Source: an uncultured delta proteobacterium
GTDB lineage: Bacteria; Myxococcota_A; Polyangia; Polyangiales; Houyiibacteriaceae
Assembly (NCBI GenBank): GCA_963845195.1
Contig: CAWJRH010000001.1
Location: 852,597-916,596 of the forward strand
DNA length: 64,000 bases
Direction of reading: 5' to 3'
Made by a program: the position numbers and the translations under genes. The stretch's first letter is position 1; every line of letters starts with the position of its first letter. Below are positions 10,833-30,804 of the stretch, one piece after another. The notes beneath the pieces are model-generated. The model worked only from the letters and a program-made list of their open reading frames with translations, was not told the DNA's origin and ran no database searches.

Positions 10833-11942
<1,110 letters not shown>

Positions 11943-11957
11943 CGCGAGGACGCTGCG

Positions 11958-12800: not shown

Positions 12801-12801
12801 C

Positions 12802-13317: not shown

Positions 13318-15188
13318 TCACGCTTTCGCAGCGCCGTGAGGTCGGGGAGTTCCGAAAGCGCTACCGCTGGATGGCGCTCTTCGTCGTGTTGGTCTTCGCC
13401 GGACTCATCGTGCGCATCGCCCAGGTGCAGCTGTTCCAGCGCGACCGCTGGTCTGGCATCGCACAGGACAACATTACGAAGACCCTCGAGCTGCCTCCAA
13501 CTCGCGGCGTGATTCGCGATCTCACGGGCCGGGTGATCGCATCGAACCGCCCATCCTACGACGTTTATGCGACGCCCCGGCTCCTCCAGAGCCCGGACGA
13601 CATCGAACGGATTGCGTCGTTGATGAGTCTGTCTCCGGCCGATGCCAGGGCGTTCCGAGAGCGACTGGAGGCGCTTCCCGCAAGCCGGCGCACCCAGCAA
13701 CTGCAGCTCTTCCGCGACATCAGCCGCGGCCAGCTTGCCGCGCTCGACACGCATCTTGCGGAGCTTCGGGCACTCGACATCGTGACGGTGCCTCTTCGCC
13801 ACTATCCCTACAAGAGCCTCGGGGCCCACCTGATTGGCTACCTCAACGAGGTGAACTCAAGCGACCTCGAGAAGGCTGACGACCCGGATTTCTACCGCTC
13901 CGGCGATCGCATTGGACGGAGCGGCCTCGAACGGGAGTACGAGACGCTCCTGCGCGGCTCGCGCGGATTCGAGCGGGTGGTCGTCGATGCGCAGGGAAGG
14001 GCCTTGACCGACGCTGAGCCAGAGTCGCTCGAAGTCGAGATGCATCGATCGCCGGTTCCAGGCCACGATCTACAGCTCACACTCGACATGCGACTCATGG
14101 AAGCGTTCGATCGTGCCTTCGAGCCCTATCCTTCGGGGGCCGCCGTCGTGGTCGATATTCATACGGGGGCGGTGCGCGCGCTCTACTCGAAGCCTGTCTA
14201 CGACCCGAACGAGCTCAGCAGTGGCCTGAGCCAGCGCCGATACAGCGAACTCACCGAGGATCCGTTCCGTCCGCTGATCGACAAGACGATCTATGACACC
14301 TATTTTCCTGGCTCGACGTTCAAAGTGTTTACTGCTTTGGCGGCCCTCGATGAGCATGTCGTCGACCCCGGCCAGCGAGTAGAATGCAAGGGTTCCATCC
14401 GGATCGGACGCCAGAAGTTTCGGTGCAACCGTCGTCACGAATGGGTCGATCTCTACGAGTCGATCGTCCAATCCTGCAACGTCTACTTCTGGGAGCTCGC
14501 AGAAGACGTCGGGCTCGAGCGAATCAATCGCTATGCACGCGATTTCGGCTTCGACGAGCGAAGCGGAATCGGAGTCAACAGCGAAGCTAGGGGCTTCCTG
14601 GCCACGCGCGAATGGTACGTCGAGCACTTCGGTGCGTTTCGGCCTGGGTACACCCTCAATACCGCGATTGGGCAAGGGAACACCCGAGTCACCGTGCTCC
14701 AGCTCGCGATGGCCTACGCGGCGATCGCCAACGGCGGCACCCTATATCAACCGCAGGTGGTCGAGAACGTACGAGCACCCGACGGCTCCCTGTCGGATAC
14801 GTTTCAACCTAAGGTGCGTCGCCGGGTCGACGTGTCGCCCGCGCACCTCGACTTGATTCGTCGCGCCCTGGTCGAAGTCGTCAACGACGAGTCCGGCACC
14901 GCGTATCGTGCCCGCCGCAAGGACGCCCCCCGAGTGGCAGGCAAGACGGGCACGGCCCAGGTGGTCAGCCGCAAGAGCAAGACCGACGAGTCCTCGAGCG
15001 CCTGGTACCTCGATCGCTCCCACGGTTGGTTTGCCGGGTTTGCGCCTGCTGACGATCCACAGGTAGCGTTTGCCGTGCTGGTGGAGCACGGTGGCGGTGG
15101 TGGTTCGAGTGCAGCCCCGATCGCCACGGCCGTCATGAAGGAGTACTTGAGCCCGCCTCGATCGACCGACTCCGCCGGGGAACCGTAG
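13314..15188 (+). CDS. mrdA: penicillin-binding protein 2 (elongasome transpeptidase)
   Basis: ORF 13044-15188 trimmed to ATG 13314 (ATGA overlap with mreD; MITLSQRREVGEFRKRYRWMALFVV). Active-site STFK (FPGSTFKVF), SxN-like and KTGTA motifs. Confidence 0.9.
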   Translation: MITLSQRREVGEFRKRYRWMALFVVLVFAGLIVRIAQVQLFQRDRWSGIAQDNITKTLELPPTRGVIRDLTGRVIASNRPSYDVYATPRLLQSPDDIERIASLMSLSPADARAFRERLEALPASRRTQQLQLFRDISRGQLAALDTHLAELRALDIVTVPLRHYPYKSLGAHLIGYLNEVNSSDLEKADDPDFYRSGDRIGRSGLEREYETLLRGSRGFERVVVDAQGRALTDAEPESLEVEMHRSPVPGHDLQLTLDMRLMEAFDRAFEPYPSGAAVVVDIHTGAVRALYSKPVYDPNELSSGLSQRRYSELTEDPFRPLIDKTIYDTYFPGSTFKVFTALAALDEHVVDPGQRVECKGSIRIGRQKFRCNRRHEWVDLYESIVQSCNVYFWELAEDVGLERINRYARDFGFDERSGIGVNSEARGFLATREWYVEHFGAFRPGYTLNTAIGQGNTRVTVLQLAMAYAAIANGGTLYQPQVVENVRAPDGSLSDTFQPKVRRRVDVSPAHLDLIRRALVEVVNDESGTAYRARRKDAPRVAGKTGTAQVVSRKSKTDESSSAWYLDRSHGWFAGFAPADDPQVAFAVLVEHGGGGGSSAAPIATAVMKEYLSPPRSTDSAGEP

Positions 15189-15190
15189 CC

Positions 15191-16300
15191 ATGGCGCTTG
15201 GACGGACGCTTCGAGACGAGTTCGACTGGCCGCTGTTCATCGCGGTCTCGACCATCGCGCTCTTCGGTGTGCTCAACCTCTACAGTGCGACCGACGGCGG
15301 CCGCACCTCGGAGGCCTACATTCAGCAGCTGTACTGGCTCGTACTCGGCTTCGGGGTGGCGGGGTTCACGGTCGCAATCGACTACCGCAACTTCGAGCGC
15401 TACGGCTGGGCGATTTACGGCGGCTGCGTGTCTCTCCTGGTGCTCGTGCTTCTTCTTGGTCGCAGTGTGCGGGGCTCGACCCGCTGGATTGCCATCGGCG
15501 GGTTCTCTCTGCAGCCGAGCGAGCTGATGAAGATCGGACTCATCATCGCCCTCGCCAAGGTACTCCATCACGACACCAAGACCGGCGGCCGCACCCTGGT
15601 CGACCTGGTCGTGCCTGGTTTCATCCTCGCGCTGCCGATGGGTCTCGTCCTGCTTCAGCCCGACCTCGGCACCGCGATGGTGCTCGCCTTCATCTTCGCG
15701 AGCGTGATGATGCTCACTCAGCTGAAGCTTCGCTCGGTGGTCACGCTGCTCGCGTCCTTTGTCGCCGCGGCGCCGATCACCTGGTTCTACCTGCTGAAGG
15801 ACTACCAGAAAGAGCGAATCGTCGCGTTTTGGAACCGCCTCGGCGGCACGCAGTCAGACCTTCTCGACTCGGGATGGCATGCGCACCAGTCGCTCGTTGC
15901 GATTGGAAGCGGGGGCTTCGCGGGCAAGGGGTTCACCCAGGGGACCCAGACGCGCTTTCGGTTTCTGCCCGACCAGCACACCGATTTCCCGTTTCCGGTC
16001 TGGGCCGAGGAGCACGGCTTCATCGGCGCGGTTCTGCTGATCGCGCTCTATTTGTTCTTGGTTCTTTGGTCGCTTCGGATCGCTGCGCAAGCGCGCGACC
16101 GGTTTGGCGCGGTTGTCGCCGTGGGCGTCGGCGCGATGATCTTCTGGCAGACCGTCGTGAATCTCGGGATGGTGTCAGGGCTCCTGCCGGTGGTGGGGAT
16201 GACCCTGCCGCTCTTCTCCTACGGGGGCTCCAGCCTGCTGTCGACGATGGTCGGGCTGGGTTTACTCATGAACGTATCGATGCGAAGATTTGCCCATTGA
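15191..16300 (+). CDS. rodA: SEDS glycosyltransferase RodA
   Basis: FtsW/RodA/SpoVE-type polytopic protein (LQPSELMKI, DFPFPVWAEEHGFIG, GLLPVVGMTLPLFSYGGSS) directly after mrdA. Confidence 0.9.
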   Translation: MALGRTLRDEFDWPLFIAVSTIALFGVLNLYSATDGGRTSEAYIQQLYWLVLGFGVAGFTVAIDYRNFERYGWAIYGGCVSLLVLVLLLGRSVRGSTRWIAIGGFSLQPSELMKIGLIIALAKVLHHDTKTGGRTLVDLVVPGFILALPMGLVLLQPDLGTAMVLAFIFASVMMLTQLKLRSVVTLLASFVAAAPITWFYLLKDYQKERIVAFWNRLGGTQSDLLDSGWHAHQSLVAIGSGGFAGKGFTQGTQTRFRFLPDQHTDFPFPVWAEEHGFIGAVLLIALYLFLVLWSLRIAAQARDRFGAVVAVGVGAMIFWQTVVNLGMVSGLLPVVGMTLPLFSYGGSSLLSTMVGLGLLMNVSMRRFAH

Positions 16301-20517: not shown

Positions 20518-21147
20518 TTAGGGGGACTCGAGACGGAGCGCGGGCACGAATCGCCGCCGCAGGAAGTCGCGGAGTTCTTGATCGCTTCGTTGTGGGTCAG
20601 GGGAAGCAAGGAGGGACATGATGAGTCGGAGCATGTACTCCATGATCTCATTGGTTTCGGATTCGCTCCAGCCGGCCTGCTCGATGAAGTCGGCGAAGGC
20701 GACGCGTGCGAACGCGATCGACGCGGGCTGCGTGAAGCCGCGAAGCACTTCCGCATCGAAGACGGGAGGGTTCCAGACCTGCTTGAGGACCGCGTTCTCT
20801 TTCACCCCCTGCAGCACGTACGCAATCGCCTCGATCGCGCTTTCGCCGAGGTCGTCGTGCTTGGCCATGCGCTCGCGAACCTGCGTTGCAAGCCGCAGAC
20901 CTGCCTGCAGCAGCACCGAACGAATTAGTTCTTCGCGGTCTTTGAAGTAGCGGTAGACAGTCGGCCGGCTCACGCCCGCCTCGAGTGCCACGTGCGCGAT
21001 GCCGGTACCGTGGATTCCGTCCCGCGCCACACAGCGGGCCGCAACCTCGAGAAGCCGCTCACGTGCGGCCGTTCGATGAGGCGGATCGCCCCTCCAGGAT
21101 TCCCGTGCGGAGGCCTCGCTCTTTGGGTCGACAGAGATTTTCGTCAT
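20518..21147 (-). CDS. TetR-family transcriptional regulator
   Basis: N-terminal HTH (RERLLEVAARCVARDGIHGTGIAHVALEAGVSRPTVYRYFKDREELI). Confidence 0.85.
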   Translation of the reverse strand: MTKISVDPKSEASARESWRGDPPHRTAARERLLEVAARCVARDGIHGTGIAHVALEAGVSRPTVYRYFKDREELIRSVLLQAGLRLATQVRERMAKHDDLGESAIEAIAYVLQGVKENAVLKQVWNPPVFDAEVLRGFTQPASIAFARVAFADFIEQAGWSESETNEIMEYMLRLIMSLLASPDPQRSDQELRDFLRRRFVPALRLESP

Positions 21148-21292
21148 CAGGCGATCGAGAGTGAACGTAGGTTAGCCTGATACCCCGGACCACCCCGCGC
21201 GATCAAGCGTTTCGGCTGTCGGTCTTGGTGGGAGGGTGTCGGTGAACCCTGTGTTGGCACTCACCGGATCGCACGATTTCGGGTCTGAACAC

Positions 21293-21320
21293 TTGGGAAC
21301 CTTTGCCGCGGCTCGGCGTT
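21293..21320 (+). promoter_or_regulatory. possible ECF-type promoter (GGAAC-N16-CGTT) upstream of cassette 1
   Basis: ttGGGAAC (21293-21300), a 16-nt spacer, then CGTT (21317-21320), ~37 nt before ATG 21357. The octamer TTGGGAAC recurs at 21321-21328. Pattern match only. Confidence 0.25.
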
Positions 21321-21356
21321 TTGGGAACGCTGAAAGGCACGAGGGAAACCCAAATC

Positions 21357-22331
21357 ATGCCGCAACGCTGGCTTATCTTTCAGATTATCGCGCTCGCGCT
21401 GTGCGTCGGGTGCAGCGAATCATCGTCGAGCCCCAGGTGCAATTCACCGGACAGCACGGACCCTAGCTGTAATTCAACCGGCGGCACGGGCGGCGGTGGT
21501 GTCGGCGGCACCGGCGGCATCGGCGGCGAACCGATAGTCCCATTCTGTGAGACGGGCCCTTTGTGCGCGGCCTGCCCCGACTCTCGCGACGTGTGCGAAC
21601 CGAGCGTCGGCTGCGACAACGGCTTCGCCTGCATCGAATCGGGCTGCGCGACCAACGAAGGCGAGTTGATTCACGTCTGCGCCCTCGAACCGGCATCGTT
21701 TTGCCTCAACAACAGCGACTGTCCCGAAGGCCGCGCCTGCACCGATCTCGGCGAAGAGGGTTTGCGGTGCGTGAAGTCCACCCCGGGCTGTGCCTCGCAC
21801 TTCGACTGCATCATCGGCTTCTCGTGTGAAGACGGCGCCTGCGTTGACCGACGCGTTCCATGCGTCCTCGATGCCGACTGCCCGGTCAGCCACGTATGTG
21901 AGACGATTCAGCTCTCGAGCTTTTGCCAGCGAGTGCACCACGACTGCGAGGGAGAGCTCGACTGCGGCGTTCTTGCTCCGCGCTGCGTCGACATCGACGG
22001 CGACGGCCGAAACGAGTGCGCAGGGAGCCCGACTCCGAACGAGCCAAGTCCTCCTGCATGCGTCAATCTCGACTGCGCCGGGACCGCCAGCCCCGTCTGC
22101 GAGCTTTCTCAGGCCGGCAACACCACCGTCTGCGGCGCCTACGGACTCTGCCTCACCGACGAAGACTGCGTCGGCGGCTTCAACTGCGTCGAACTCTGGC
22201 CCGACGGGCGCAAAGAGTGTGTCCCGTCAGGCGGGGACTGCGCGCACATCACTGATTGCGACCTTCGTCAGGTCTGCGCCTCGCCGCGGACCGGGGGTCC
22301 GCCGCGCTGTCAGGCCGGGGTCAGCCCATGA
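21357..22331 (+). CDS. Cys-rich secreted lipoprotein, cassette 1 small partner
   Basis: ORF 21303-22331 trimmed to ATG 21357 (MPQRWLIFQIIALALCVGCSE, lipobox). Short Gly-rich tether, then ~270 aa containing 36 Cys in repeated C-x3-4-DC-x4-6-C-x6-10-C modules. Collinear paralog at 24941-26044. Confidence 0.8.
   Translation: MPQRWLIFQIIALALCVGCSESSSSPRCNSPDSTDPSCNSTGGTGGGGVGGTGGIGGEPIVPFCETGPLCAACPDSRDVCEPSVGCDNGFACIESGCATNEGELIHVCALEPASFCLNNSDCPEGRACTDLGEEGLRCVKSTPGCASHFDCIIGFSCEDGACVDRRVPCVLDADCPVSHVCETIQLSSFCQRVHHDCEGELDCGVLAPRCVDIDGDGRNECAGSPTPNEPSPPACVNLDCAGTASPVCELSQAGNTTVCGAYGLCLTDEDCVGGFNCVELWPDGRKECVPSGGDCAHITDCDLRQVCASPRTGGPPRCQAGVSP
21477..21527 (+). repeat. short (GGxGG)n-coding tract
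   Basis: TGGTGGGGVGGTGGIGG encoded by ggc/acc/ggt repeats. Confidence 0.6.
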
Positions 22332-22342
22332 GGAGAAGTACC

Positions 22343-24835
22343 ATGAAGCCGTTGCCCCACCTTCCTTGGGGATTCGTCCTGCTCGCAATCGGCCTTAGCG
22401 CCTGCGCGAGCACCGACGAGTTCGATTCGACCTTCGACTCGCTCACACAGGTCGACGACGACGTCTGCGTCACCGGAGATCCCGACTACGACCCGGCCGA
22501 CCCGCGCTGTCTCGTGACCGGTCCCGCGGGCACGGGCGTGCTGACGCCAACCGGCTGCACCGGTGGCGATCCCACTTGCTATCGCGGCCAAAACTATCCG
22601 ACCCAGAGCGATCTGACGATTGCGAACTCGGCGAACATTGCCTTCATCGGCAACAGCGTCCAGCTCGTCGGAGGCTCAGGGTCGATCGTCGACAGCGACG
22701 GCGACTTCGTGCCCGATCCGGCCGACGAGTGCGTGGGGCCCGGCTTCCGGCTTCCCTGCGATGGCGACCCGAGCGACGATGGCATCTACCAGACGCTGTT
22801 CTTCTCGACCAACTCGACGACCACGCTCGGCGCCGACATCGAGGTCGACGCCGCGATTCAAAAGGCCGACGCATACCTCCTCATGGATGCGACCGGGTCG
22901 ATGGGAGGGGAACAGGCTCAGCTCATCAACGACCTCACCAAGGGCACGTTCATTGACCCCACCCTCTGCGCCGAGGGGGCCGACACTGGGCTCGTCGGTG
23001 CCCTCAAGTGCGTAATTCCAGACCTCTGGATTGGGCTTGGCCAGTTCAACGAGGTGCCGGTCAGTCCGTACGGACACGCGTACGGGTACACGCCCTATCA
23101 TCATCTGCTCGACGTCACGAACGATCTTCAGCATCTGCTCGACTCCGTGTCGAGCCTCACCATACAGGGCAACCGCGACCTTCCAGAGTCCGGAAGTCAG
23201 GCGCTCTACTCGACGATCACCGGCCGCGGGCTCGGCCCCTGGGTGCCCAACCGAGGGGCGTGCCCGGCCAACCCTGCCGGCCGCTGGGGCTATCCGTGCT
23301 TTCGCCCCGCGACGCTGCCGATCATCATCCTCTTTAGCGACGCGCCGATGCACAACGGACCGCTTCCCGGTGGAACCACCTACGATCCAAGCCTGTTTGC
23401 CGGCGTGGGGCTCGGCTCTCGGCTGCCGCCGGTCGAACAGTATCCTGGCATTCTCTACTCGAACGACGCGCTGAGCGCGTTCGACCTCGGTGACCTCACC
23501 AACAGGTCGGTCACCGTGATGGGAACGACGGCGAACTTCGCGGACAGCTTCCTCACCTGGACCGAAGGGGCCTGCAACTACTGCCCGATGGCAGGTTGTT
23601 TCGGGGACGGCCGAGACGCGGCGGTGAGGTTCAGCCTGTCGAATCCAACCACCGCCTTCGTGAGTACCGAGGGGTCGTTCCCTTCCATCATGAACATGGG
23701 CATTGCCGACAGCTCGTTTGTCTACGCGGCCTGTGACCACGGCCCCGGAGCGGGCGACTGGTGGGGGCGCGCCACGACGCTGCTCGGCGCCGGTGACTGG
23801 TACGCGATTGCCGACGCATCCATCGCGCCGACCGGCAGCGTGAACGCTGAGCGCGGACCTTTTCAGCTCCGCATCAAGACCACGCCCGACGATCCGAGCT
23901 GGCAGACCGACGACATGCCGATTGCATGGACCACGGTCGAGAACGAGCTGCTCGCGGCCCGCGTCAAGGTCGTGAGCATCACCAGTCCCAACAGCGGGGG
24001 CCTCATCGGCCTTCCGGACCTGACCGAGCTCGCCTACATCACGGATTCGGTCGATTCGTCGGGGCAGCCGTTTGTCGAGACGATTGCGGGAGACGGGCAG
24101 GGCCTTTCGACTGCGCTCCTCGACAGCGTGCGGTCCCTCGTCGGTGACGTCCGACGTGACGTCACCCTCATCGCCGAGGACGACCCGTCGACGCCCGCCG
24201 TCGATGAGCGCGACTTCCTCACTGCGATTACCGCCACACAGTGTCCGACGACCGGCATCTCGAACTGCCTCAGCGGAGCCGGCACGAGTACTTGCGAAGG
24301 ATGTCTTGCCGACACCACGCTCTCGTTCCAGTTCCGAATCGGAAACAACTTCGTGGCTCAGGGCGCGACCTCGCAGGTGTTCGAGTTCGACTTGGTCGCG
24401 GTCGACGACGTAGGGAACGAGCTGAGCCGAATCCCGGTCCGCGTCATGGTGCCGCCCGCGGGCACCGACTTCGGCAACGGTTTCTATCAGGCGACCTACG
24501 AGGCCGATGGCACCTGCCTGATGCCTCCCGAGCGCCCGGACTGGGGTTTCATGAGCTGGTCGGCAAGCATGCCCTCCGACTCCTCGATCGAGTTCGAGGT
24601 CTTCACCGCGAACACGCGCGCGGGGCTCGACCTCGACCTGCCGATGTCGATCGTCGTCCCCGCGGGGACCACGACCGGCTCCGTGGACATTGGGCCGATG
24701 CTCCAGTCCTCGGGTCGACTGAACTATCTGCCGTACCTGCGCGTCCGCGCGAAGATGATCGCCTCGAGCGACGGCGCGAGTTCGCCGAGCCTCGACGGGT
24801 GGACCATGCAGTTCAACTGCTTCCCCTCCGATTAG
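22343..24835 (+). CDS. large vWA/MIDAS-like lipoprotein, cassette 1 large partner
   Basis: ORF 22256-24835. ATG 22343 has RBS gaggagaag; an alternative ATG at 22328 overlaps the upstream stop. Begins MKPLPHLPWGFVLLAIGLSACAS (lipobox). Asp-rich DSDGDFVPDPADEC. vWA-like core with DxTxS (LLMDATGSMGG), GNRDLPESGSQALY and IIILFSDAPMHNG. Long conserved C-terminal region ending GWTMQFNCFPSD. Confidence 0.8.
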   Translation: MKPLPHLPWGFVLLAIGLSACASTDEFDSTFDSLTQVDDDVCVTGDPDYDPADPRCLVTGPAGTGVLTPTGCTGGDPTCYRGQNYPTQSDLTIANSANIAFIGNSVQLVGGSGSIVDSDGDFVPDPADECVGPGFRLPCDGDPSDDGIYQTLFFSTNSTTTLGADIEVDAAIQKADAYLLMDATGSMGGEQAQLINDLTKGTFIDPTLCAEGADTGLVGALKCVIPDLWIGLGQFNEVPVSPYGHAYGYTPYHHLLDVTNDLQHLLDSVSSLTIQGNRDLPESGSQALYSTITGRGLGPWVPNRGACPANPAGRWGYPCFRPATLPIIILFSDAPMHNGPLPGGTTYDPSLFAGVGLGSRLPPVEQYPGILYSNDALSAFDLGDLTNRSVTVMGTTANFADSFLTWTEGACNYCPMAGCFGDGRDAAVRFSLSNPTTAFVSTEGSFPSIMNMGIADSSFVYAACDHGPGAGDWWGRATTLLGAGDWYAIADASIAPTGSVNAERGPFQLRIKTTPDDPSWQTDDMPIAWTTVENELLAARVKVVSITSPNSGGLIGLPDLTELAYITDSVDSSGQPFVETIAGDGQGLSTALLDSVRSLVGDVRRDVTLIAEDDPSTPAVDERDFLTAITATQCPTTGISNCLSGAGTSTCEGCLADTTLSFQFRIGNNFVAQGATSQVFEFDLVAVDDVGNELSRIPVRVMVPPAGTDFGNGFYQATYEADGTCLMPPERPDWGFMSWSASMPSDSSIEFEVFTANTRAGLDLDLPMSIVVPAGTTTGSVDIGPMLQSSGRLNYLPYLRVRAKMIASSDGASSPSLDGWTMQFNCFPSD

Positions 24836-24894
24836 GGACTGTAGAGACGATCACTAAAAGTGTAACTTTCTAGTCACATGGCCAGTCTGCCTTT

Positions 24895-24922
24895 GATGAA
24901 GAAGGATTAATCCTTCATCATT
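24895..24922 (+). other. AT-rich imperfect hairpin in the inter-cassette spacer
   Basis: gatgaagaagga-ttaa-tccttcatcatt forms a ~12-bp stem with one A:A mismatch, 18 nt upstream of ATG 24941 and abutting the RBS aagaggaaag. It sits in the only markedly AT-rich stretch of this locus. Confidence 0.35.
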
Positions 24923-24940
24923 GGAACAAGAGGAAAGACC

Positions 24941-26044
24941 ATGGCCAAACGTGCGCTTGCGCTCATTGCAGTTTCACTCGTCCTTCTCGTGGGCTGTGCG
25001 GAGGACATTCCCTTCGCGCCCAGCTTCACCGGAACCGGCGGCACCGGAGCGACCGGTGCGTTCAACGGGTTCGGTGGATTCGGGGGCACGGGGATGAGCG
25101 CTGGGACCGGCGGCACTGGTGGCGACGCTGGCACGGGCGGCGTTGGCGGCACGGGCGGCACTGGAGCGACAGGTGCGACCGGTGGCACGGGTGGCGGTGG
25201 CGGAGCGGGTGGCACCGGGGGTGCCGGTGGTCTGCCGAGTGATTGCCAGACCAGCCCGCTTTGCGACATCTGTCCGGGTTCTTCGTTTCGCTGCGAGAGC
25301 GACATGGGTTGCAATCTAGGTTACACGTGCATTCCGTCGGGCTGCACCGACCTTGCCGGCAGCCCCATCAAGCAGTGCCAAGAGCTTCCGGGTGGAAGCT
25401 GTGTGACCGACGACGACTGTCCGAGCCCATCGGCTCCGGACGATGAGTACACATGCGATACCGTCCCTCCCGGCGGTCTCAAGTGCATCAAGCAGACGCC
25501 CGGGTGCAACACCGACGCAGACTGCGTGTACGGGTTTGCGTGTCAGGACGGCGAATGCGTCGACCGCCGCGTCCCGTGCAACAGCTTCGATGATAGCTGT
25601 CCGGTGAGCTACACGTGCGAGAACGTAACGGGGAACGGCAACTTCTGCGTTCGCATCTACGAATCCTGCGAAAGCGACATCGACTGCGCCATCCTTGCTC
25701 CGTATTGCGCAGACATCGACGGTGACGGCCGGACAGAGTGCGCCGGAGAGCGCGACGCGTCGGGAACGCCTTGCGTGAACGCTTCGTGCGGCGGCGTACT
25801 GCCGGTCTGCGAGGCAGCGGGGGTTGGGAGCATCGCTACGTGCGGCGAGTACGGACTCTGTCGCACGGACGCCGACTGCGCCGACGCGAGCTTCGAGTGC
25901 CTCGAGCTCTGGTCCGACGGCCGCAAGGAGTGCGTGAAGCAGGGCAGCACCTGTAGCTCGAGCCGCGACTGCCCCCTCAACCAGGTCTGCGCGGCCCCGC
26001 GTACGGGCGGCCCTGCAAGCTGCCAAGCCGGTACCGGGCTTTGA
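24941..26044 (+). CDS. Cys-rich secreted lipoprotein, cassette 2 small partner
   Basis: MAKRALALIAVSLVLLVGCAED (lipobox), a ~68-aa Gly/Thr-rich tether, then a Cys-rich domain collinear with 21357-22331 (shared CVDRRVPC, DIDGDGR.ECAG, LW.DGRKECV, APRTGGP..CQAG). Confidence 0.8.
   Translation: MAKRALALIAVSLVLLVGCAEDIPFAPSFTGTGGTGATGAFNGFGGFGGTGMSAGTGGTGGDAGTGGVGGTGGTGATGATGGTGGGGGAGGTGGAGGLPSDCQTSPLCDICPGSSFRCESDMGCNLGYTCIPSGCTDLAGSPIKQCQELPGGSCVTDDDCPSPSAPDDEYTCDTVPPGGLKCIKQTPGCNTDADCVYGFACQDGECVDRRVPCNSFDDSCPVSYTCENVTGNGNFCVRIYESCESDIDCAILAPYCADIDGDGRTECAGERDASGTPCVNASCGGVLPVCEAAGVGSIATCGEYGLCRTDADCADASFECLELWSDGRKECVKQGSTCSSSRDCPLNQVCAAPRTGGPASCQAGTGL
25028..25231 (+). repeat. long (GGTGG/GATG)n-coding low-complexity tract
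   Basis: TGTGGTGATGAFNGFGGFGGTGMSAGTGGTGGDAGTGGVGGTGGTGATGATGGTGGGGGAGGTGGAGG. The antisense strand reads PPVPP (spurious ORF 24907-25314). Confidence 0.75.
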
Positions 26045-26058
26045 ACGAAAGGAACGCA

Positions 26059-28557
26059 GTGAACTACCGATCGCTCACGCCCTGGCTCTGCTTCCTCTTC
26101 TCGCTCGGACTCGTCGCCTGCGATACCGGCCTGCGCCCGGAGCAGTTTGAAGCACATCTGACACAGAAGGCCGATGTCGACGTCTGCGACCAAAGCAGCG
26201 ACGACTTCGATCCGTTCGACCCGCGCTGCGACGAGAGCGGCCCAGGGGGCACCGGCGTGTTCGATCCTGAGCCTTGCCCCGGAGGCGATCCGACCTGCAA
26301 TCGGAGTCAGGCGTACCCGACCCAGTACGACCTCACGGTCCAGAACTCCTCGAATGTCGCGTTCTCATCCGGCGCCAACGGATTGCGGCTGCTTGGCGGC
26401 AGCTCGAACCTCGTCGACTCGGACGGGGACGACGTGCCCGACGAAGCAGACGAGTGCCCGGGGCCCGGCTGGAGGACTCCGTGCGACGGGGACCCGACCA
26501 ACGATGGAATCTATCAGACCGTCTACTACGACGTCGGCAACGAGATCACGCTCGGCGCCAACATCAACGTTGATGGAAAGATTCGCACGGCCGACGCCTA
26601 CATTCTCATGGACGCGACCGGATCGATGGGGGGCGAGCAGGCGCAGCTGATTCGCGACCTCACCAAAGGAACCTTCATTGACCCAGAGGAGTGCCCGGGT
26701 GCGGCCGAGACCGGCCTTGCCGGTGCGCTGAAATGTGTGGTCGAGAACGTCTGGATGGGGCTCGGTCAGTTCAACGAGTATCCGTTCGCGCCGCACGGCC
26801 ACAACTACGGGTATGCGCCCTACCACCATCACCTCGACGTCACCGACAATCTGCAGCATCTGCTCGACGCGGTGTCGACCCTCCGGACCAAGGGCAATCG
26901 CGACACCCCCGAGGCGACGACGCAGGCGCTCTACTCGGTCGTGACCGGGCAAGGTCTCGGACCGTGGGTACCGAACCGGCAGGGCTGCCCCGAGGGGCAC
27001 TGGGGCTACCCCTGCTTTCGCCCGACTGCACTTCCGATCGTGATGCTCTTCACCGACGACGAGATGCAGAACGGGCCCCGACCGCAAAGCCCGCTCTACC
27101 GCGACTTCGGCGCTACTGGCCGCGGCACACGCATTCCGCCGGTCATTCAGGATCCGGGGATGCTGTACTCCTCAAACGCCGTCTCGGCGCACGACTTCGG
27201 TGACCTCACGACGACGTCGATGACGGCCATGGGCACGAACTCGCTCTTTGGAAACAATTTCAACACGTCGCCCGCCTCGGGTGCCTGTCACTACTGCAAC
27301 AGCAAGGGCTGTTGGGGCGACGGCCGCGACGGGGTCATCACCTTCACGACGCGCAACCTGCTTCCTTCGGTGAAGATCAGCAGCGACGGCACGTTCTATC
27401 CCGACACGAAAGTCGCGCTGTTCGACTCGTCGCTCAGCATGTACGCCTGCGGCGTCGGTCCCGGGGGCGGAAACCTATGGGGTCGCCTCGACGAGCCGCT
27501 GCCTGCCGGACGTTGGTTCGCGGTCTCCGACCCTCGCATCGCGCCCAACAAGAGCGTCAACAGCGCGCGAGGACCTTTTCAGATTCGTATTCAGACCACC
27601 GCAGACGACCCGAGCTGGCAGACCGCCGATGCGCCGGTCGACTGGACGACGGTCGAGACCGAGCTGCTTGCCAACGCGATCAAGGTCGTGAGCATCCTAA
27701 GCCCCGGCAACGGGAGCAACGCCAGAGCATCGCTCGACATCGACGCACTTGCCTATGCGACCGGGTCGGTCGACCAGTTTGGTGAGCCCTACGTCGAGAC
27801 GATTCAGGGCAACGGCCAGGGCCTCACCACCGCAGTTCTCGACGCCGTGCGCTCGCTCGTGGGCGATACGCGTCGCGACGTGACCATCATTCCGGTCGAC
27901 AACCCGGCGACTCCGACCGTCGACGAGTCGCAGTTCGTCGGCACCGTCACCGCGACCCAGTGTCCAACGACCGGGATCAACAACTGCCTCGGCGGTGAAG
28001 GCACCGACACCTGCATCGGCTGTCTGGCCGATAGTGACCTCGACTTCGAGTTCCGGGTCGGCAACTCGATCGTGCCTCCTTCTAGCAGCCCGCAGGTGTT
28101 CGACTTCAATCTCGTCTCGTATGCCGACGGGAGCGTCGAACTTAGCCGCATTCCCGTTCGCGTCTTGGTGCCACCGGCCGGCGTCGACTTCGGCACCGGG
28201 TACTTCGAGACGGACTACAGTGCCGAGCTCGCCTGCACCATGCCGCCCGAACGCCCCGACTGGGGTACGCTCACCTGGGTCGGTGCGCTGCCTTCGGATA
28301 CCAAGCTCGAGTTCGAGATCTTCACCGGGAACACGCTCGAAGAGCTCGACGAGGACCAGATTCCGGTCTCGGTCATCGTGCCGGACGACGCGCCCGGCAA
28401 TAGCTTCGACCTCGGTCAGGCACTGCTGACCAACGGCGCAATGAACTACATGCCGTTCGTACGGGTCCGCGCGAAGATGTTGGCCTCGTCCGACCGTCGA
28501 GCGACGCCGATCCTCTCGGGGTGGACTACCGAGTTCAACTGCATTCCGTTCGACTAA
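26059..28557 (+). CDS. large vWA/MIDAS-like lipoprotein, cassette 2 large partner
   Basis: ORF 26041-28557. TTG 26041 overlaps the upstream stop; I prefer GTG 26059 (RBS gaaagga), giving VNYRSLTPWLCFLFSLGLVACDT (lipobox). Collinear with 22343-24835 (ILMDATGSMGGEQAQLIRDLTKGTFIDP, GLGPWVPNR, WGYPCFRP, RGPFQIRIQTTADDPSWQT, QCPTTGINNCL, MPPERPDWG, VRVRAKMLASSD, GWTTEFNCIPFD). Confidence 0.8.
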   Translation: MNYRSLTPWLCFLFSLGLVACDTGLRPEQFEAHLTQKADVDVCDQSSDDFDPFDPRCDESGPGGTGVFDPEPCPGGDPTCNRSQAYPTQYDLTVQNSSNVAFSSGANGLRLLGGSSNLVDSDGDDVPDEADECPGPGWRTPCDGDPTNDGIYQTVYYDVGNEITLGANINVDGKIRTADAYILMDATGSMGGEQAQLIRDLTKGTFIDPEECPGAAETGLAGALKCVVENVWMGLGQFNEYPFAPHGHNYGYAPYHHHLDVTDNLQHLLDAVSTLRTKGNRDTPEATTQALYSVVTGQGLGPWVPNRQGCPEGHWGYPCFRPTALPIVMLFTDDEMQNGPRPQSPLYRDFGATGRGTRIPPVIQDPGMLYSSNAVSAHDFGDLTTTSMTAMGTNSLFGNNFNTSPASGACHYCNSKGCWGDGRDGVITFTTRNLLPSVKISSDGTFYPDTKVALFDSSLSMYACGVGPGGGNLWGRLDEPLPAGRWFAVSDPRIAPNKSVNSARGPFQIRIQTTADDPSWQTADAPVDWTTVETELLANAIKVVSILSPGNGSNARASLDIDALAYATGSVDQFGEPYVETIQGNGQGLTTAVLDAVRSLVGDTRRDVTIIPVDNPATPTVDESQFVGTVTATQCPTTGINNCLGGEGTDTCIGCLADSDLDFEFRVGNSIVPPSSSPQVFDFNLVSYADGSVELSRIPVRVLVPPAGVDFGTGYFETDYSAELACTMPPERPDWGTLTWVGALPSDTKLEFEIFTGNTLEELDEDQIPVSVIVPDDAPGNSFDLGQALLTNGAMNYMPFVRVRAKMLASSDRRATPILSGWTTEFNCIPFD

Positions 28558-28583
28558 GACCGAGTTCAGGGTGAACTCGGTCT
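28557..28583. terminator. perfect 11-bp hairpin shared by convergent gene ends
   Basis: agaccgagttc-agggt-gaactcggtct spans the gap between the TAA of the vWA gene (28555-28557) and the stop of the minus-strand propeller gene (28582-28584). No U-tract. Confidence 0.5.
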
Positions 28584-30804
28584 ACCCGCCCTGAATCAGG
28601 GTCAGCACGGGTTTGGGCGCATAGCCCGCGAGGTATCCGCTCTCCTCGGCAACGTAGACCCAGCCGCGTTCGTCGACGCGCATCATGTCGGGCACGAGTT
28701 CGCACGGCAGGCTCGCGGAGAGGCGGCCGCCGTCGCTTGGGCGAAGGACGTGGACCGAGGACGCAGGGACGAATAGGGCGCCTCCACGCAGCACCGGTTC
28801 GAGCCTCCGCGGAATCTCATCGGCGAGCGCGTCCGCAAGCGAAGCGGACCATTGGACGTCTCCCGATCCGACGTCGAGCGAGACGAGCTGTCCGAACGGC
28901 GCGTTGACGACCCAGCTATCGTCGATGCAAAGCCCGGCACCGCCGATGCCCATGCCCGGATCCTGGGTCCTCCAGAGCGAGCGGCCGTCTTCGACCGCGT
29001 GAGCGCAGAGCTGGGACTGCTCGCCGGTCGTGGAGATCAGCACCGTGCGATTCGCGCGTGCCGGGTCCGACGTCGGGGGCCCCGACAGAGCCTGCTGCCA
29101 CCGAGGCTGCCCGCTGTAGAGGTCGATCGCATAGAGCAGACCTTCGTGCGCACCCTGTGCCGCCGCGGCGATGACCGTCTCGTCGACGACCAGGGGCTTG
29201 AATCGGAAGCTTCCCCGCTCGGCGAATCGCCAGACGTCTTCGCCTGTCGCGAGGTCGATGGCGTGAATCGCCTCGTCACCACAGGTGACCAAGAGGATTC
29301 GGCCGACCTTGGTCATACGGAACTCGCCGCCGCTGCGGGAGGCGAACCTCCATCGAGGCTCTCCGGTTCGCACGTCGATTGCGACCAGACGATGGCTGCC
29401 CTCGGTCAGCACGGCCACTGGGGGAAAGCTATCGCCGCCGGCCATCATGCCGCTCGGTGGACCGCCGATTCGCGGGGTGATGTGGGTGGAGCAGTAGGGC
29501 TCCCCGTCTTCGATGCTGCAGAGTTCGAGCTCGCCCTCTGCGGACACGCGGATCAGTACGGTGCCGGCCATCAGGGTTGCCGCGGCGCTGCCGGGGCGCG
29601 CCCAGAGCACCTGACCATCGTCGCGAGAGATCGCGACCATGTGATTCTGCGCGGCGACGACCAAGCGATCGCCGCACATGAACACGGCGTTGGCATCGAG
29701 TCCTTCGAGTCCGATGCGCCATCGTTCGTCGAACTGAAGTGACGGCAGCCGGTCGGAGGCTCCCGCCGTCTCGGGTGCGTGCCCGTGCAAGCGGAGGCGG
29801 TCCGGGTCGAGATTGACGAAACTGTCGGCGTTCCGGCGCGTTCGAATCTCTTGGCGGAGCGCACGTACCTCTTGGCGAAGCGCGCGCACCCGGAGGTTCC
29901 GGCTTTGGCCCCGATCGGCGGCAACGAGGCTGCGGAGCAAGTCGCTCGTGAGCTTGAGGATCGGGAGCGCTGCTTCAGCGATACTCAGCGAGGTGGCGGT
30001 GAGGTCCCCCTTTCCCTCCGAGCAGAGCTCAACGCTCACGAGCTCCGACGAAGACTTGCGCATGGCGATCTGGAACGAGCCGGCGCGAAGACGCACGTGG
30101 GTTGGTCGCTTGCTGTCCCAGCTGTCGACCAGGGTGCGGACCGCCACCACCATTCGGTGGGCTGCCAGCAAGATAGGACCTCGGACCAGAGAAAGGCGGC
30201 GTCCCCGAACGAACGCCCATAGATGGCCTTCGAAGAGAAGCGCGTGGACGTCGGCACGGGTCGAGCGGCTTTGCGACGAGGTCGACGAGGGGTAGATGCC
30301 TGCCTCGTATCCGAAGGCCAGAGGCACCTCGGACGGCGGCGCGTCGAGTTCACCGCCACGGTGGTTGATCGCGGCGAGCGGCCCGTCGACCTCCGGCGCA
30401 ACCTTGGTCGCTAGGGCACGCTCCGCGACCCGCATCGAGATCTGGCGCGAGGTCGGGTCGGGCTCACAGGTGGCCGCTTCCAGCATCGCCTGCGCGCACG
30501 TATCTAGCAGATGCCGCAGCGGCACCGCCCGATCCAACTGATACACCACCGGCGCGCTCGCCGTGCCGTAGCAGCTGATGAGCACCGAGTCGCCGCGTCG
30601 AAGCAGCGCATACTCGATCGCAGTCGTGGCCAGTGGGAGTAAGACCTTCCGCTTGGCCCCCATGGCGAGCGCTGTGGTCGCGGCGGTGAGGTCTGCGATC
30701 GAGGGAACCTCGACGTCGAGCTCGCTGCCAAGCAAGAGGCGCGGAACCACGGAATCCGTGGGGCCGGCGGCGTAGGAAACCGTTTCGTCTAAGCGTGCAA
30801 CCAT
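28582..30804 (-). CDS. PQQ-like beta-propeller repeat protein with ~340-aa uncharacterised N-terminal domain
   Basis: 740 aa with no signal peptide. The C-terminal ~390 aa carry repeated propeller blades (AISRDDGQVLWAR, AIDVRTGEPRWRF, AIDLATGEDVWRF, AIDLYSGQPRWQQ, AVEDGRSLWRT, SLDVGSGDVQWSA). The N-terminal half is unrecognised and ends in a short coiled-coil-like segment (RVRALRQEVRALRQEIRTRR). Confidence 0.8.
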   Translation of the reverse strand: MVARLDETVSYAAGPTDSVVPRLLLGSELDVEVPSIADLTAATTALAMGAKRKVLLPLATTAIEYALLRRGDSVLISCYGTASAPVVYQLDRAVPLRHLLDTCAQAMLEAATCEPDPTSRQISMRVAERALATKVAPEVDGPLAAINHRGGELDAPPSEVPLAFGYEAGIYPSSTSSQSRSTRADVHALLFEGHLWAFVRGRRLSLVRGPILLAAHRMVVAVRTLVDSWDSKRPTHVRLRAGSFQIAMRKSSSELVSVELCSEGKGDLTATSLSIAEAALPILKLTSDLLRSLVAADRGQSRNLRVRALRQEVRALRQEIRTRRNADSFVNLDPDRLRLHGHAPETAGASDRLPSLQFDERWRIGLEGLDANAVFMCGDRLVVAAQNHMVAISRDDGQVLWARPGSAAATLMAGTVLIRVSAEGELELCSIEDGEPYCSTHITPRIGGPPSGMMAGGDSFPPVAVLTEGSHRLVAIDVRTGEPRWRFASRSGGEFRMTKVGRILLVTCGDEAIHAIDLATGEDVWRFAERGSFRFKPLVVDETVIAAAAQGAHEGLLYAIDLYSGQPRWQQALSGPPTSDPARANRTVLISTTGEQSQLCAHAVEDGRSLWRTQDPGMGIGGAGLCIDDSWVVNAPFGQLVSLDVGSGDVQWSASLADALADEIPRRLEPVLRGGALFVPASSVHVLRPSDGGRLSASLPCELVPDMMRVDERGWVYVAEESGYLAGYAPKPVLTLIQGG

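What the first reader, a model, noticed from the sequence alone, without database searches (positions are those of the whole stretch)
21357..28557. Tandemly duplicated, translationally coupled two-gene cassette: Cys-rich lipoprotein + ~830-aa vWA-like lipoprotein
Two consecutive gene pairs share one architecture: 21357-22331 + 22343-24835, and 24941-26044 + 26059-28557. In both pairs the small gene's stop sits on or next to candidate starts of the large gene (cccATGAggagaagtaccATG; cttTGAacgaaaggaacgcaGTG). All four products start with a signal peptide and lipobox Cys (ALCVGC, GLSAC, LLVGC, GLVAC). The paralogs are collinear end to end. Large partners share LMDATGSMGGEQAQLI.DLTKGTFIDP, GLGPWVPNR, WGYPCFRP, RGPFQ.RI.TT.DDPSWQT, QCPTTGI.NCL, MPPERPDWG, .RVRAKM.ASSD and GWT..FNC.P.D. 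Small partners share CVDRRVPC, DIDGDGR.ECAG, LW.DGRKECV and APRTGGP..CQAG. They are nonetheless clearly diverged. A 130-aa stretch I aligned by hand was ~73% identical, and the rest looks lower. So the duplication is old and both copies remain intact. No ATPase, protease, transporter or chaperone of a known vWA system (e.g. MoxR/Bat type) is adjacent. I cannot place either protein in a named functional family beyond the vWA-like core. The obligate pairing, double lipidation and duplication-divergence pattern suggest a heteromeric surface complex, perhaps for adhesion, ligand or prey recognition. This is the best candidate in the window for an undescribed system.
Basis: partly seen in the sequence, partly recalled or inferred. 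Interest (0 to 1): 0.8.

Follow-up and report, generated by a model that had tools for sequence, protein, structure and literature searches.

The report
Integrin-beta-like lipoprotein with cysteine-rich partner
Two neighbouring gene pairs in an uncultured myxobacterium each encode a cysteine-rich lipoprotein and a large lipoprotein whose core resembles the ligand-binding head of animal integrin beta subunits, a pairing kept in many related genomes but never studied.

Summary
Four intact + strand genes, S1-L1-S2-L2, are present. L1/L2 are 57% identical end to end and S1/S2 are 49% identical. All four have lipoboxes whose Cys is invariant in their families.

The large protein can now be placed. 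A profile of diverse homologs hits only integrin beta chains in the PDB (E 5e-7). The top 50 Foldseek PDB matches of the AlphaFold model are all integrin beta chains. The MIDAS, ADMIDAS and SyMBS metal-site residues are conserved. A PPC-like beta-sandwich is inserted in the domain. S is a Gly-tethered, disulfide-rich repeat protein with no solved relative.

S and L are adjacent in every close locus with upstream sequence (about 35) and in 20 of 31 distant loci. This holds across several chromosomal contexts, usually with a 9-nt gap or an ATGA overlap.

The "cassette duplication" history is not supported. The S duplication (Sa/Sb) is old and the common layout is Sa-Sb-L. The extra L1 is restricted to one lineage.

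The closest characterised analog is the M. xanthus beta-integrin-like gliding lipoprotein CglD. Homology to it could not be tested.

The most likely function is a metal-dependent envelope adhesion or recognition module, which is inferred. I rate it a new variant of a known kind, of moderate interest.

The parts
21357..22331 (+). S1: Sa-type Cys-rich lipoprotein, 324 aa. It has a signal peptide with a lipobox Cys19, a short Gly-rich tether and a disulfide-rich repeat domain (38 Cys in the mature protein).
   Evidence: It has 185 or more homolog clusters. It groups with the first S of Sa-Sb-L loci (bootstrap 100 with L081 and the P01 MAG orthologs).
22343..24835 (+). L1: 830-aa integrin-beta-like lipoprotein (lipobox Cys21). 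It is the lineage-restricted extra copy.
   Evidence: AF2 pLDDT is 79.4. The top 50 Foldseek PDB hits are all integrin beta.
22679..22783 (+). L1 residues 113-147: a thrombospondin-type-3-like Ca-binding loop (DSDGDFVPDPADEC...CDGD). It is the most conserved segment of the family.
   Evidence: mean column conservation 0.83. A weak TSP_3 hit occurs in one of 40 members of alignment A1 and in the more distant homolog L049.
22862..23377 (+). L1 residues 174-345: N-terminal half of the beta-I (VWA) domain. MIDAS is D182-x-T184-x-S186, the ADMIDAS-like residue is E190, the SyMBS/MIDAS motif is N277-R-D279-L-P281-E282, and the MIDAS Asp is D333.
   Evidence: The residues align to D119/S121/S123, D127, N215/D217/P219/E220 and D251 of integrin beta3. 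They are invariant or at least 90% conserved.
23588..23887 (+). L1 residues ~416-515: a PPC-like beta-sandwich inserted into the beta-I domain. It is the least conserved part between L1 and L2 (about 40% identity) and is absent from short-form distant homologs.
   Evidence: It aligns to the PF04151 domain of P0408, which scores above Pfam's cut-off.
23888..24832 (+). L1 residues 516-830: C-terminal half of beta-I followed by two beta-sandwich domains. Conserved Cys are C634/C642/C651/C654 and C725/C826. The conserved C-terminus is GW(T/S)xxFNCxPxD.
   Evidence: This module lies at the C-terminus of many superfamily members.
24894..24920 (+). Imperfect palindrome or hairpin, TGATGAAGAAGGATTAATCCTTCATCA, in the 105-bp L1-S2 spacer, 21 nt before the S2 start. 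It is a possible cis-regulatory element.
   Evidence: The same motif lies 43 nt upstream of the S start in L001. L081 keeps the outer arms and has an inner stem changed on both sides. Two matches occur in the window against 0.02 expected.
24941..26044 (+). S2: Sb-type Cys-rich lipoprotein, 367 aa. It has lipobox Cys19, an ~80-aa disordered Gly-rich tether and a domain with 36 Cys.
   Evidence: AF2 pLDDT of the core is about 90. No PDB fold match was found.
26059..28557 (+). L2: 832-aa integrin-beta-like lipoprotein. It is the ortholog of the single L found in the closest relatives (65-66% identity). MIDAS to ADMIDAS-like residues D185-E193 lie at 26611-26637.

Best explanation
The region encodes two paralogous units of a conserved module found in Polyangia-type myxobacteria. 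Each unit pairs a small lipoprotein (S) with a large one (L).

S consists of a lipid anchor, a flexible Gly-rich tether and a domain stabilised by about 18 disulfides. L consists of a lipid anchor, a Ca-binding TSP3-like loop, an integrin-beta-type I domain and C-terminal beta-sandwiches. The I domain keeps a complete MIDAS/ADMIDAS/SyMBS metal cluster and carries an inserted PPC-like beta-sandwich.

Shown here:
- L is homologous in sequence and predicted fold to the integrin beta I domain, with the metal sites conserved.
- Both families carry an invariant lipobox Cys, and the mature proteins have even Cys counts, which fits an extracytoplasmic, oxidising location.
- S and L are encoded side by side with very short or overlapping junctions in many genomes and in several chromosomal contexts.

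Inferred:
- S and L are co-translated, exported and lipidated, and work together at the outer membrane.
- L uses its metal-ion site to bind an acidic side chain of a ligand. The ligand could be a substratum, matrix or prey polymer, another cell, or S itself.
- S serves as a rigid Cys-rich stalk or co-receptor.
- This mirrors the beta-integrin-like adhesin CglD of M. xanthus, in which the Cys-rich stalk and the beta-I head are in one polypeptide.

On history, S duplicated first, giving the widespread Sa-Sb-L layout. In the lineage of this window an extra L (L1) now lies between Sa and Sb. That gives each S its own downstream L.
For: Integrin-beta identity of L:
- The Pfam best and only hit is Integrin_beta, below cut-off.
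- A profile of 26 diverse homolog segments hits 64 PDB sequences. The 60 shown are all integrin beta chains or an integrin beta-2-like protein, at E 4.7e-7 and weaker.
- The top 50 Foldseek PDB hits are all integrin beta chains, best E 2.3e-13.
- DxTxS, E190, NxDxPE and D333 are invariant or at least 90% conserved.

Lipoproteins: the lipobox Cys is invariant. Mature Cys counts are even: 38, 20, 36 and 20.

Linkage of S and L:
- S is adjacent in all close loci with upstream sequence and in 20 of 31 distant loci.
- Adjacency is kept in different contexts: the TetR/PQQ site, the L081 context, the Sandaracinaceae 2-oxoacid-dehydrogenase context, and a convergent orientation in L063/64/66/70.
- Junctions are typically 9 nt or a 4-nt overlap.

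PPC insert.

History.

Functional analog: CglD is a surface beta-integrin-like lipoprotein whose MIDAS D656N variant is compromised for gliding (bioRxiv 10.1101/2023.10.19.562135).
Against: - No direct evidence exists for an S-L physical complex, for surface exposure or for adhesion.
- Multimer modelling was not possible with these tools.
- No S-L fusion protein was found among 149 superfamily representatives. The one apparent fusion, in L061, is a frameshift artefact.
- Eleven of 31 distant L genes, and all 7 very distant ones, lack a detectable S neighbour. L can therefore exist without S.
- The usual stoichiometry in genomes is two S genes to one L, not 1:1.
- Pfam Integrin_beta scores (17.9 and 19.1 bits) are below the gathering cut-off of 24.8.
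- All relatives found are MAGs, apart from one Sandaracinus amylolyticus protein. No expression or phenotype data exist.
Confidence: 0.55

Rival explanations
1. L1 and L2 are orthologs or functional equivalents of CglD. They act as accessory adhesins of an Agl-Glt gliding (bacterial focal adhesion) machine, and S is incidental.
For: [quoted passage not shown] The preprint reports CglD-like homologs in diverse deltaproteobacteria. L has the same type of head, a lipobox and a TSP3-like loop. Some L homologs carry an inserted VWA with a weak CglB match.
Against: L has one TSP3-like motif, not twelve, and no EGF-like stalk. No CglD-like architecture appears among the top 150 superfamily representatives. 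The preprint itself limits the link with gliding to Cystobacterineae. No glt or agl genes lie next to any S-L locus. The tight conservation of S next to L argues that S is not incidental.
Confidence: 0.15
2. S and L are independent secreted or periplasmic lipoproteins. Their adjacency reflects only inherited gene order and co-regulation, with no joint function or complex.
For: Among close relatives the whole neighbourhood from DUF1295 to the histidine kinase is syntenic, so adjacency there is weak evidence by itself. Eleven of 31 distant L genes lack S. No fusion proteins were found.
Against: The pair persists when everything around it changes. This is seen in L081, in the second-site pairs L023/L024/L032/L033 and in the Sandaracinaceae context. 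It persists even when the orientation is convergent. The 9-nt or ATGA junctions are conserved. Both families have the same narrow taxonomic range.
Confidence: 0.2
3. The module is a cell-cell or kin/prey recognition device rather than a substratum adhesin. S acts like the Cys-rich stalk of TraA. The variable PPC insert of L determines specificity. Duplication and divergence create new specificities.
For: S1 has a weak match to the myxobacterial Cys-rich repeat TIGR04201. The PPC insert region is the most diverged part between L1 and L2, at about 40% identity. S and L have duplicated repeatedly, giving Sa/Sb, L1/L2, S-L-L in L041 and S-L-S in L023.
Against: The TIGR04201 score is below cut-off and S2 has no hit. 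Across the family the insert is not hypervariable: mean column conservation is 0.67 against 0.62-0.83 for the other mature-protein segments. No PA14 domain, MYXO-CTERM signal or traB-like gene is present.
Confidence: 0.1

Closest known systems
[quoted passage not shown]
   Same: Both are myxobacterial lipoproteins with an integrin-beta-I-type VWA domain. Both have a DxSxS-type MIDAS, thrombospondin-type DxDxDG Ca-binding sequence and many disulfides. The beta-I plus beta-sandwich part is of similar size: about 470 aa in CglD (residues 644-1111) against about 480 aa in L without its insert.
   Different: CglD is one 1130-aa chain with twelve DxDxDG repeats and an EGF-like Cys-rich stalk. In the window, L has a single TSP3-like loop and a PPC insert, and the Cys-rich module is a separate lipoprotein (S). 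There is no evidence of a link to Glt machinery.
Metazoan integrin beta subunit headpiece (beta-I plus hybrid domain; Pfam PF00362)
   Same: There is a significant and exclusive profile match to integrin beta chains and a fold match to them. Equivalents of the MIDAS, ADMIDAS and SyMBS residues are conserved. Beta-strands precede and follow the VWA domain, as in a hybrid domain (topology not verified).
   Different: There is no alpha-subunit propeller partner, no transmembrane helix or cytoplasmic tail, and no I-EGF legs in the same chain. The protein is lipid-anchored at its N-terminus. A PPC domain is inserted after the MIDAS Asp. Pfam scores are below the gathering cut-off.
TraA-type myxobacterial Cys-rich repeat stalks (TIGR04201), LDL-receptor class A modules and Dickkopf_N modules
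   Same: S is a tandem array of short disulfide-bonded units with CxxDxDC-like motifs. Weak hits are TIGR04201 for S1, Ldl_recept_a in 9 of 42 members and Dickkopf_N in 2 of 42 members.
   Different: The weak hits of the window proteins are all below the curated cut-offs. The AF2 model has no significant structural neighbour in the PDB. S is a stand-alone lipoprotein with a Gly-rich tether. It is not a stalk within a larger receptor.
MoxR/Bat/TerY-type bacterial VWA systems
   Same: They contain a VWA fold with a MIDAS.
   Different: No AAA+ ATPase, BatA-D gene or phosphatase/kinase partner is nearby. The VWA subtype here is beta-I, not the generic bacterial VWA.

Membership tests
Integrin beta I-domain family (PF00362 Integrin_beta) | Score above Pfam's gathering cut-off | tested here: not met
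   L1 scores 17.9 bits and L2 19.1 bits against a cut-off of 24.8. Nine of 40 family members give weak hits, best E 1.3e-4.
Integrin beta I-domain family (PF00362 Integrin_beta) | Specific sequence homology to integrin beta chains rather than to generic VWA domains | tested here: met
   The A3 profile of 26 diverse segments hits 64 PDB sequences. The 60 shown are all integrin beta chains or an integrin beta-2-like protein: E about 5e-7 to 8e-6 for beta1, 3, 6 and 8, and about 2e-4 to 8e-4 for beta2 and 7.
Integrin beta I-domain family (PF00362 Integrin_beta) | MIDAS (DxSxS...E...D) together with the ADMIDAS and SyMBS residues typical of beta-I | tested here: met
   D182-x-T184-x-S186, E190, N277-x-D279-x-P281-E282 and D333 align to D119/S121/S123, D127, N215/D217/P219/E220 and D251 of beta3. 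They are invariant or at least 90% conserved.
Integrin beta I-domain family (PF00362 Integrin_beta) | Headpiece fold (beta-I inserted in a hybrid beta-sandwich) | tested here: inconclusive
   The top 50 Foldseek PDB hits are all integrin beta chains, with 560-640 aligned columns. Strands flank the VWA domain.
Integrin heterodimer | Alpha-subunit beta-propeller partner, plus a transmembrane helix and cytoplasmic tail | tested here: not met
   The adjacent PQQ-like propeller has no signal peptide and is not linked to distant S-L pairs. L and S are N-terminally lipidated and have no transmembrane helix.
CglD-type beta-integrin-like gliding lipoprotein | Lipoprotein with a beta-I-like VWA domain and a MIDAS | tested here: met
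CglD-type beta-integrin-like gliding lipoprotein | COMP-like array of about 12 DxDxDG repeats and an EGF-like Cys-rich stalk in the same chain | tested here: not met
   L has a single TSP3-like DxDGD loop: DSDGDFVPDPADEC in L1 and DSDGDD in L2. It has 20 mature Cys and no EGF-like array. The Cys-rich module is in the separate S protein.
CglD-type beta-integrin-like gliding lipoprotein | Sequence homology to MXAN_0962 and association with Glt/CglB | not testable with these tools
   The CglD sequence could not be retrieved. NCBIfam gave no CglD-type hit. None of the top 150 representatives has CglD's architecture.
Bacterial lipoproteins (Lgt/LspA substrates) | N-terminal signal peptide ending in a lipobox with an invariant Cys | tested here: met
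   The lipobox sequences are LSAC, LVAC, LVGC and CVGC. C21 (L) and C19 (S) are invariant in alignments of 40 and 42 sequences.
Myxobacterial Cys-rich repeat (TIGR04201, TraA-type stalk) | Repeat hits above the NCBIfam cut-off | tested here: not met
   S1 scores 16.1 bits against a cut-off of 25. S2 has no hit.
PPC domain (PF04151) | Pfam hit in the inserted beta-sandwich | tested here: inconclusive
   L1 and L2 give no direct hit. L1 residues ~420-500 align to the PPC domain of P0408, which scores 29.7 bits against a cut-off of 25.9. P0492 and P0262 score about 37 bits.
MoxR/Bat-type VWA systems | Adjacent AAA+ ATPase or bat genes | tested here: not met
   The neighbours are TetR, DctP, DUF1295, a PQQ-like propeller, a glycosyltransferase and phosphodiesterases.

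The most novel reading that the evidence does not exclude
S and L together form a previously unrecognised split bacterial integrin-beta-like adhesin. L is a lipid-anchored head with three metal sites and a PPC-type specificity insert. It is held or regulated by one or two separately encoded, disulfide-rich stalk lipoproteins (Sa and Sb). The L superfamily is large, with 1453 clusters at 50% identity. This would show that the integrin beta headpiece has a deep and diversified history in myxobacteria, and is not a one-off transfer from eukaryotes.
Probability: 0.3. Interest if true: 0.75.

Novelty: new variant of a known kind. Interest (0 to 1): 0.55.

Why it matters
Integrin-type adhesion is usually regarded as a eukaryotic invention. 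So far only one bacterial beta-integrin-like protein, CglD, has been studied, and only in a preprint.

This locus belongs to a large and wholly uncharacterised superfamily: 1453 representative clusters at E<=1e-3. Its members keep the full metal-site signature of the integrin beta I domain. In many Polyangia they come with a dedicated Cys-rich lipoprotein partner.

If S and L form a complex, this would be a new architecture for bacterial surface adhesion. It would also supply material for asking how integrin-like heads evolved and are regulated. A cultured relative carries a homolog (Sandaracinus amylolyticus WP_236519586.1), so the question can be tested.

Tried and rejected
- **Alpha-integrin-like partner.** I tested whether the adjacent 740-aa PQQ-like propeller (28582-30804, minus strand) could be one. 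It has no signal peptide. It is absent from distant S-L loci. I rejected it.
- **Third conserved partner.** I clustered all ORFs around distant loci. Only housekeeping synteny was found.
- **Rosetta-stone S-L fusions.** The L061 "fusion" is a frameshift artefact. The S HMM finds no credible S domain in 149 superfamily representatives.
- **CglD among superfamily representatives.** I searched by its fingerprint of 1130 aa, 12 DxDxDG repeats and a MIDAS near residue 656. None was found in the top 150, and the CglD sequence itself could not be obtained.
- **AlphaFold database search.** The library was not available.
- **Contig look-ups.** Exact look-ups of the window's own L1 and of the S. amylolyticus homolog returned nothing.
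- **Terminator and promoter scan.** It found nothing in the intergenic spacers.
- **TetR as a dedicated regulator.** This is not supported. In many relatives an exosortase gene separates TetR from S, and distant loci lack TetR.
- **Multimer modelling.** It was not attempted. The tool returns no interface metrics and accepts only single chains.

Full report
**Observation**

The window has about 64% GC.
- S1, 21357-22331, 324 aa
- L1, 22343-24835, 830 aa
- S2, 24941-26044, 367 aa
- L2, 26059-28557, 832 aa, with a GTG start

L1 and L2 are 57% identical over their full length (E=0). S1 and S2 are 49% identical over 268 aa (E 2e-79). The two cassettes align as one 3.1-kb stretch of DNA at 66% identity.

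The one exception is that APRTGGP reads SPRTGGP in S1. The best 130-column window is 71.5% identical.

The S1 stop is overlapped by an ATG (ATGA at 22328). That ATG is in frame with the ATG at 22343, and GGAG lies between them. The S2 stop is followed 14 nt later by the GTG of L2. The N-terminal consensus of homologs (MKxxxLTPxxLF) supports the starts at 22343 and 26059.

All four proteins begin with a signal peptide and a lipobox. The lipobox Cys is invariant in alignments of 40 L and 42 S homologs. The mature proteins contain 38, 20, 36 and 20 Cys. These are even numbers, as expected for fully disulfide-bonded extracytoplasmic proteins.

**Surroundings**

Upstream lie mreB, mreC, PBP2, rodA, a CN-hydrolase, a DUF1295 gene, a DctP gene and a divergent TetR gene (20518-21147, minus strand). 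Downstream and convergent lies a 740-aa PQQ-like propeller gene. After it come a glycosyltransferase, two phosphodiesterases and a hybrid histidine kinase.

No ATPase, protease, transporter or chaperone typical of known VWA systems is present. The propeller protein has no signal peptide and is not linked to distant S-L pairs. I do not count it as part of the system.

**What L is**

Single-sequence Pfam and NCBIfam searches gave only a sub-threshold Integrin_beta hit: 17.9 and 19.1 bits against a cut-off of 24.8.

An AlphaFold2 model of L1 built on 40 homologs has a mean pLDDT of 79.4. Its 50 best Foldseek matches in the PDB are all integrin beta chains. The best E-value is 2.3e-13, with 560-640 aligned columns.

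I then built a profile from the N-terminal half of the VWA domain of 26 diverse superfamily members (A3). It finds 64 PDB sequences at E<=1. The 60 listed are all integrin beta chains (beta1, 2, 3, 6, 7 and 8) or an integrin beta-2-like protein. Beta1, 3, 6 and 8 score E 4.7e-7 to 8e-6. No alpha-I, vWF-A or generic bacterial VWA domain appears among them.

The alignments map L1 residues onto integrin beta3 as follows:

| Site | L1 | Integrin beta3 |
|---|---|---|
| MIDAS | D182-x-T184-x-S186 | D119/S121/S123 |
| ADMIDAS | E190 | D127 |
| SyMBS and MIDAS Glu | N277-R-D279-L-P281-E282 | N215/D217/P219/E220 |
| MIDAS Asp | D333 | D251 |

All these positions are invariant or at least 90% conserved in the family. 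L is therefore specifically a beta-I-type protein and not merely "vWA-like".

Other parts of L1:
- Before the domain lies a thrombospondin-type-3-like loop, DSDGDFVPDPADEC. It is the most conserved segment of the family.
- Inside the domain, after the MIDAS Asp, sits a beta-sandwich at about residues 416-515. It aligns to the PPC domain (PF04151), which scores above cut-off in Sandaracinaceae homologs.
- This insert is missing from short-form distant homologs. It is the most diverged part between L1 and L2, at about 40% identity.
- After the domain come two beta-sandwiches. Strands also precede the VWA domain. That arrangement is compatible with an integrin-like hybrid domain, but I could not inspect coordinates, so the topology is unverified.

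**What S is**

S has an N-terminal lipid anchor and then a disordered Gly-rich tether. The tether is about 80 aa in S2, with pLDDT below 50. Next comes a confidently modelled domain of about 265 aa (pLDDT about 90) with 36 invariant Cys.

- TIGR04201 for S1, at 16.1 bits against a cut-off of 25
- Ldl_recept_a in 9 of 42 members, and Dickkopf_N in 2 of 42
- the complement C9 LDLa region, at E about 0.01

Conserved non-Cys motifs include VDRRVPC, DIDGDG..EC and LWxDGRKEC.

**Distribution and linkage**

The L family has at least 330 clusters at 90% identity and the S family at least 185. All are unnamed or carry generic names. The sources that name an organism label them as uncultured Myxococcota, Polyangiales or Sandaracinaceae.

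The exhaustive HMM search found 1453 clusters at 50% identity with E<=1e-3, and 212 with E<=1e-30. Lengths range from fragments of about 125 aa to 3163 aa.

A scan of GTDB species representatives returned 79 loci. All are MAGs, and almost all are labelled as Myxococcota or deltaproteobacteria. Gene-order maps from tblastn, ORF-level BLAST and HMM searches show the following:
- **Close relatives.** In every locus with upstream sequence (about 35), S lies directly upstream of L. The junction is typically a 9-nt gap or a 4-nt overlap.
- **Distant loci (30-45% identity).** Twenty of 31 still have an S gene next to L. In L039 it is downstream on the same strand. In L063, L064, L066 and L070 it is downstream and convergent.
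- **Very distant L-like genes.** None of the 7 has a detectable S. One of them, L079, has a different ORF with 14.6% Cys directly upstream.

The pair persists in at least four unrelated chromosomal contexts:
- the TetR/PQQ site
- the L081 context
- the Sandaracinaceae site with 2-oxoacid dehydrogenase and PMT_2 genes
- second-site pairs in L023, L024, L032 and L033

This is good evidence for functional coupling. No third conserved partner was found. No S-L fusion was found either.

**History of the duplication**

The commonest layout at the orthologous site is Sa-Sb-L, seen in 21 loci. Single S-L occurs in about 5 loci. S-L-S-L occurs only in the window and in L081, where the four genes sit in a different neighbourhood.

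Bootstrapped NJ trees give these supports:
- S1 with the first S of L081 and of the P01 MAGs: 100%
- Sa as a clade, allowing single-S loci: 84%
- the Sb genes as a clade: 12%, so they are paraphyletic
- the L1 clade (window plus L081): 100%
- the L2 clade: 100%
- L1+L2+L003 as a clade: 96%
- L2+L003 as a clade, excluding L1: 93%
- a basal position for L1 (all other close L genes forming a clade without it): 0 of 100 replicates

The S duplication is therefore old and widely retained. The second L is confined to one sub-lineage. Either L1 was lost cleanly in L003 and the P01 MAGs, or it is a fast-evolving recent copy. The present alternation did not arise by one duplication of a two-gene cassette.

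**Mechanism**

Shown: S and L are co-encoded, exported, lipidated and disulfide-rich, and L has an intact integrin-beta-type metal cluster.

Inferred, with about 0.55 confidence overall:
- The two act together at the outer membrane as a divalent-cation-dependent adhesion or recognition module.
- The L MIDAS binds an acidic ligand residue.
- The PPC insert modulates specificity.
- S is a stalk or co-receptor, and possibly itself the MIDAS ligand.

The closest experimental precedent is CglD of M. xanthus. [quoted passage not shown] Its MIDAS D656N variant is compromised for gliding (bioRxiv 10.1101/2023.10.19.562135).

L differs from CglD in three ways. It has one TSP3-like loop instead of twelve. 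It has a PPC insert. Its Cys-rich module lies in a separate gene. I could not obtain the CglD sequence, so homology is untested.

The rivals considered were CglD-like gliding accessories, mere synteny without joint function, and a kin or prey recognition device. They are weighed in the structured fields.

**Verdict**

This is a new variant of a known kind: bacterial beta-integrin-like lipoprotein adhesins. It has an undescribed, conserved Cys-rich partner. Interest is moderate at 0.55.

A cultured carrier of a homolog exists: Sandaracinus amylolyticus WP_236519586.1, locus I5071_91490. Its neighbourhood could not be retrieved.

Noticed in passing
window 24894-24920; L001 8894-8914; L081 ~12545-12575: An imperfect palindrome or hairpin, TGATGA-N-TCATCA, lies just upstream of the S2 start. 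The same motif sits 43 nt upstream of the S start in L001. L081 keeps the outer arms but has a different, still complementary inner stem. The first ~45 nt of the L1-S2 spacer are also about 85% conserved between the window and L081, which is more than the coding DNA. It may be a regulatory RNA hairpin or an operator.
   Followed up: partly
L005 3568-5211 (minus strand); equivalent gaps in L010, L016, L017, L021, L040 and others; window 21148-21356: Many relatives carry an exosortase E/protease gene of the VPEID-CTERM system between TetR and the first S gene (TIGR04162, 225.7 bits against a cut-off of 150). The window has only a 209-bp spacer there. S and L have no CTERM sorting signal, so a link is unlikely.
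   Followed up: partly
L049 7575-10637; also L059, L061, L065: Some Sandaracinus or Polyangiaceae L homologs of about 1000 aa carry an extra classical VWA domain (PF00092, E 1.8e-9). It has a weak match to the gliding adhesin CglB model (NF033757, 34.5 bits against a cut-off of 200). It is inserted between the positions of L1 residues 706 and 713. These proteins thus combine a beta-I-like and an alpha-I-like domain in one chain.
   Followed up: no
L063 6057-9578, L064 5928-9608, L066 4252-7719, L070 4413-9608: A subfamily of about 1150-aa lipoproteins has a Cys-rich N-terminal half and an unassigned middle domain before the beta-I core. The core has no PPC insert. The S-like gene lies downstream on the opposite strand.
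   Followed up: partly
L079 5638-7485: A 615-aa ORF with 14.6% Cys lies directly upstream of a 1977-aa L-like ORF. The S HMM does not recognise it. It may be an unrelated or very diverged Cys-rich partner.
   Followed up: no
window 28582-30804 (minus strand): A 740-aa protein has a C-terminal PQQ/BamB-like propeller, about 380 N-terminal residues with no Pfam match, and no signal peptide. It is about 77% identical across relatives, far more conserved than S or L.
   Followed up: partly
window 10836-16300: A rod-shape gene cluster (mreB, mreC, PBP2 and rodA) confirms an ordinary chromosomal context about 5 kb upstream of the finding.
   Followed up: no
L041 5949-12773; L023 6888-11514; L056: Other arrangements of the same two families occur in distant genomes: S-L-L, S-L-S, and S-L plus a second L about 1.5 kb away. 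They show repeated independent duplication of either partner.
   Followed up: partly
L038, L042, L034, L028 (long-read MAG contigs): S and L are broken into several frames in these loci. These are probably assembly frameshifts rather than pseudogenes. They were not counted as losses.
   Followed up: no
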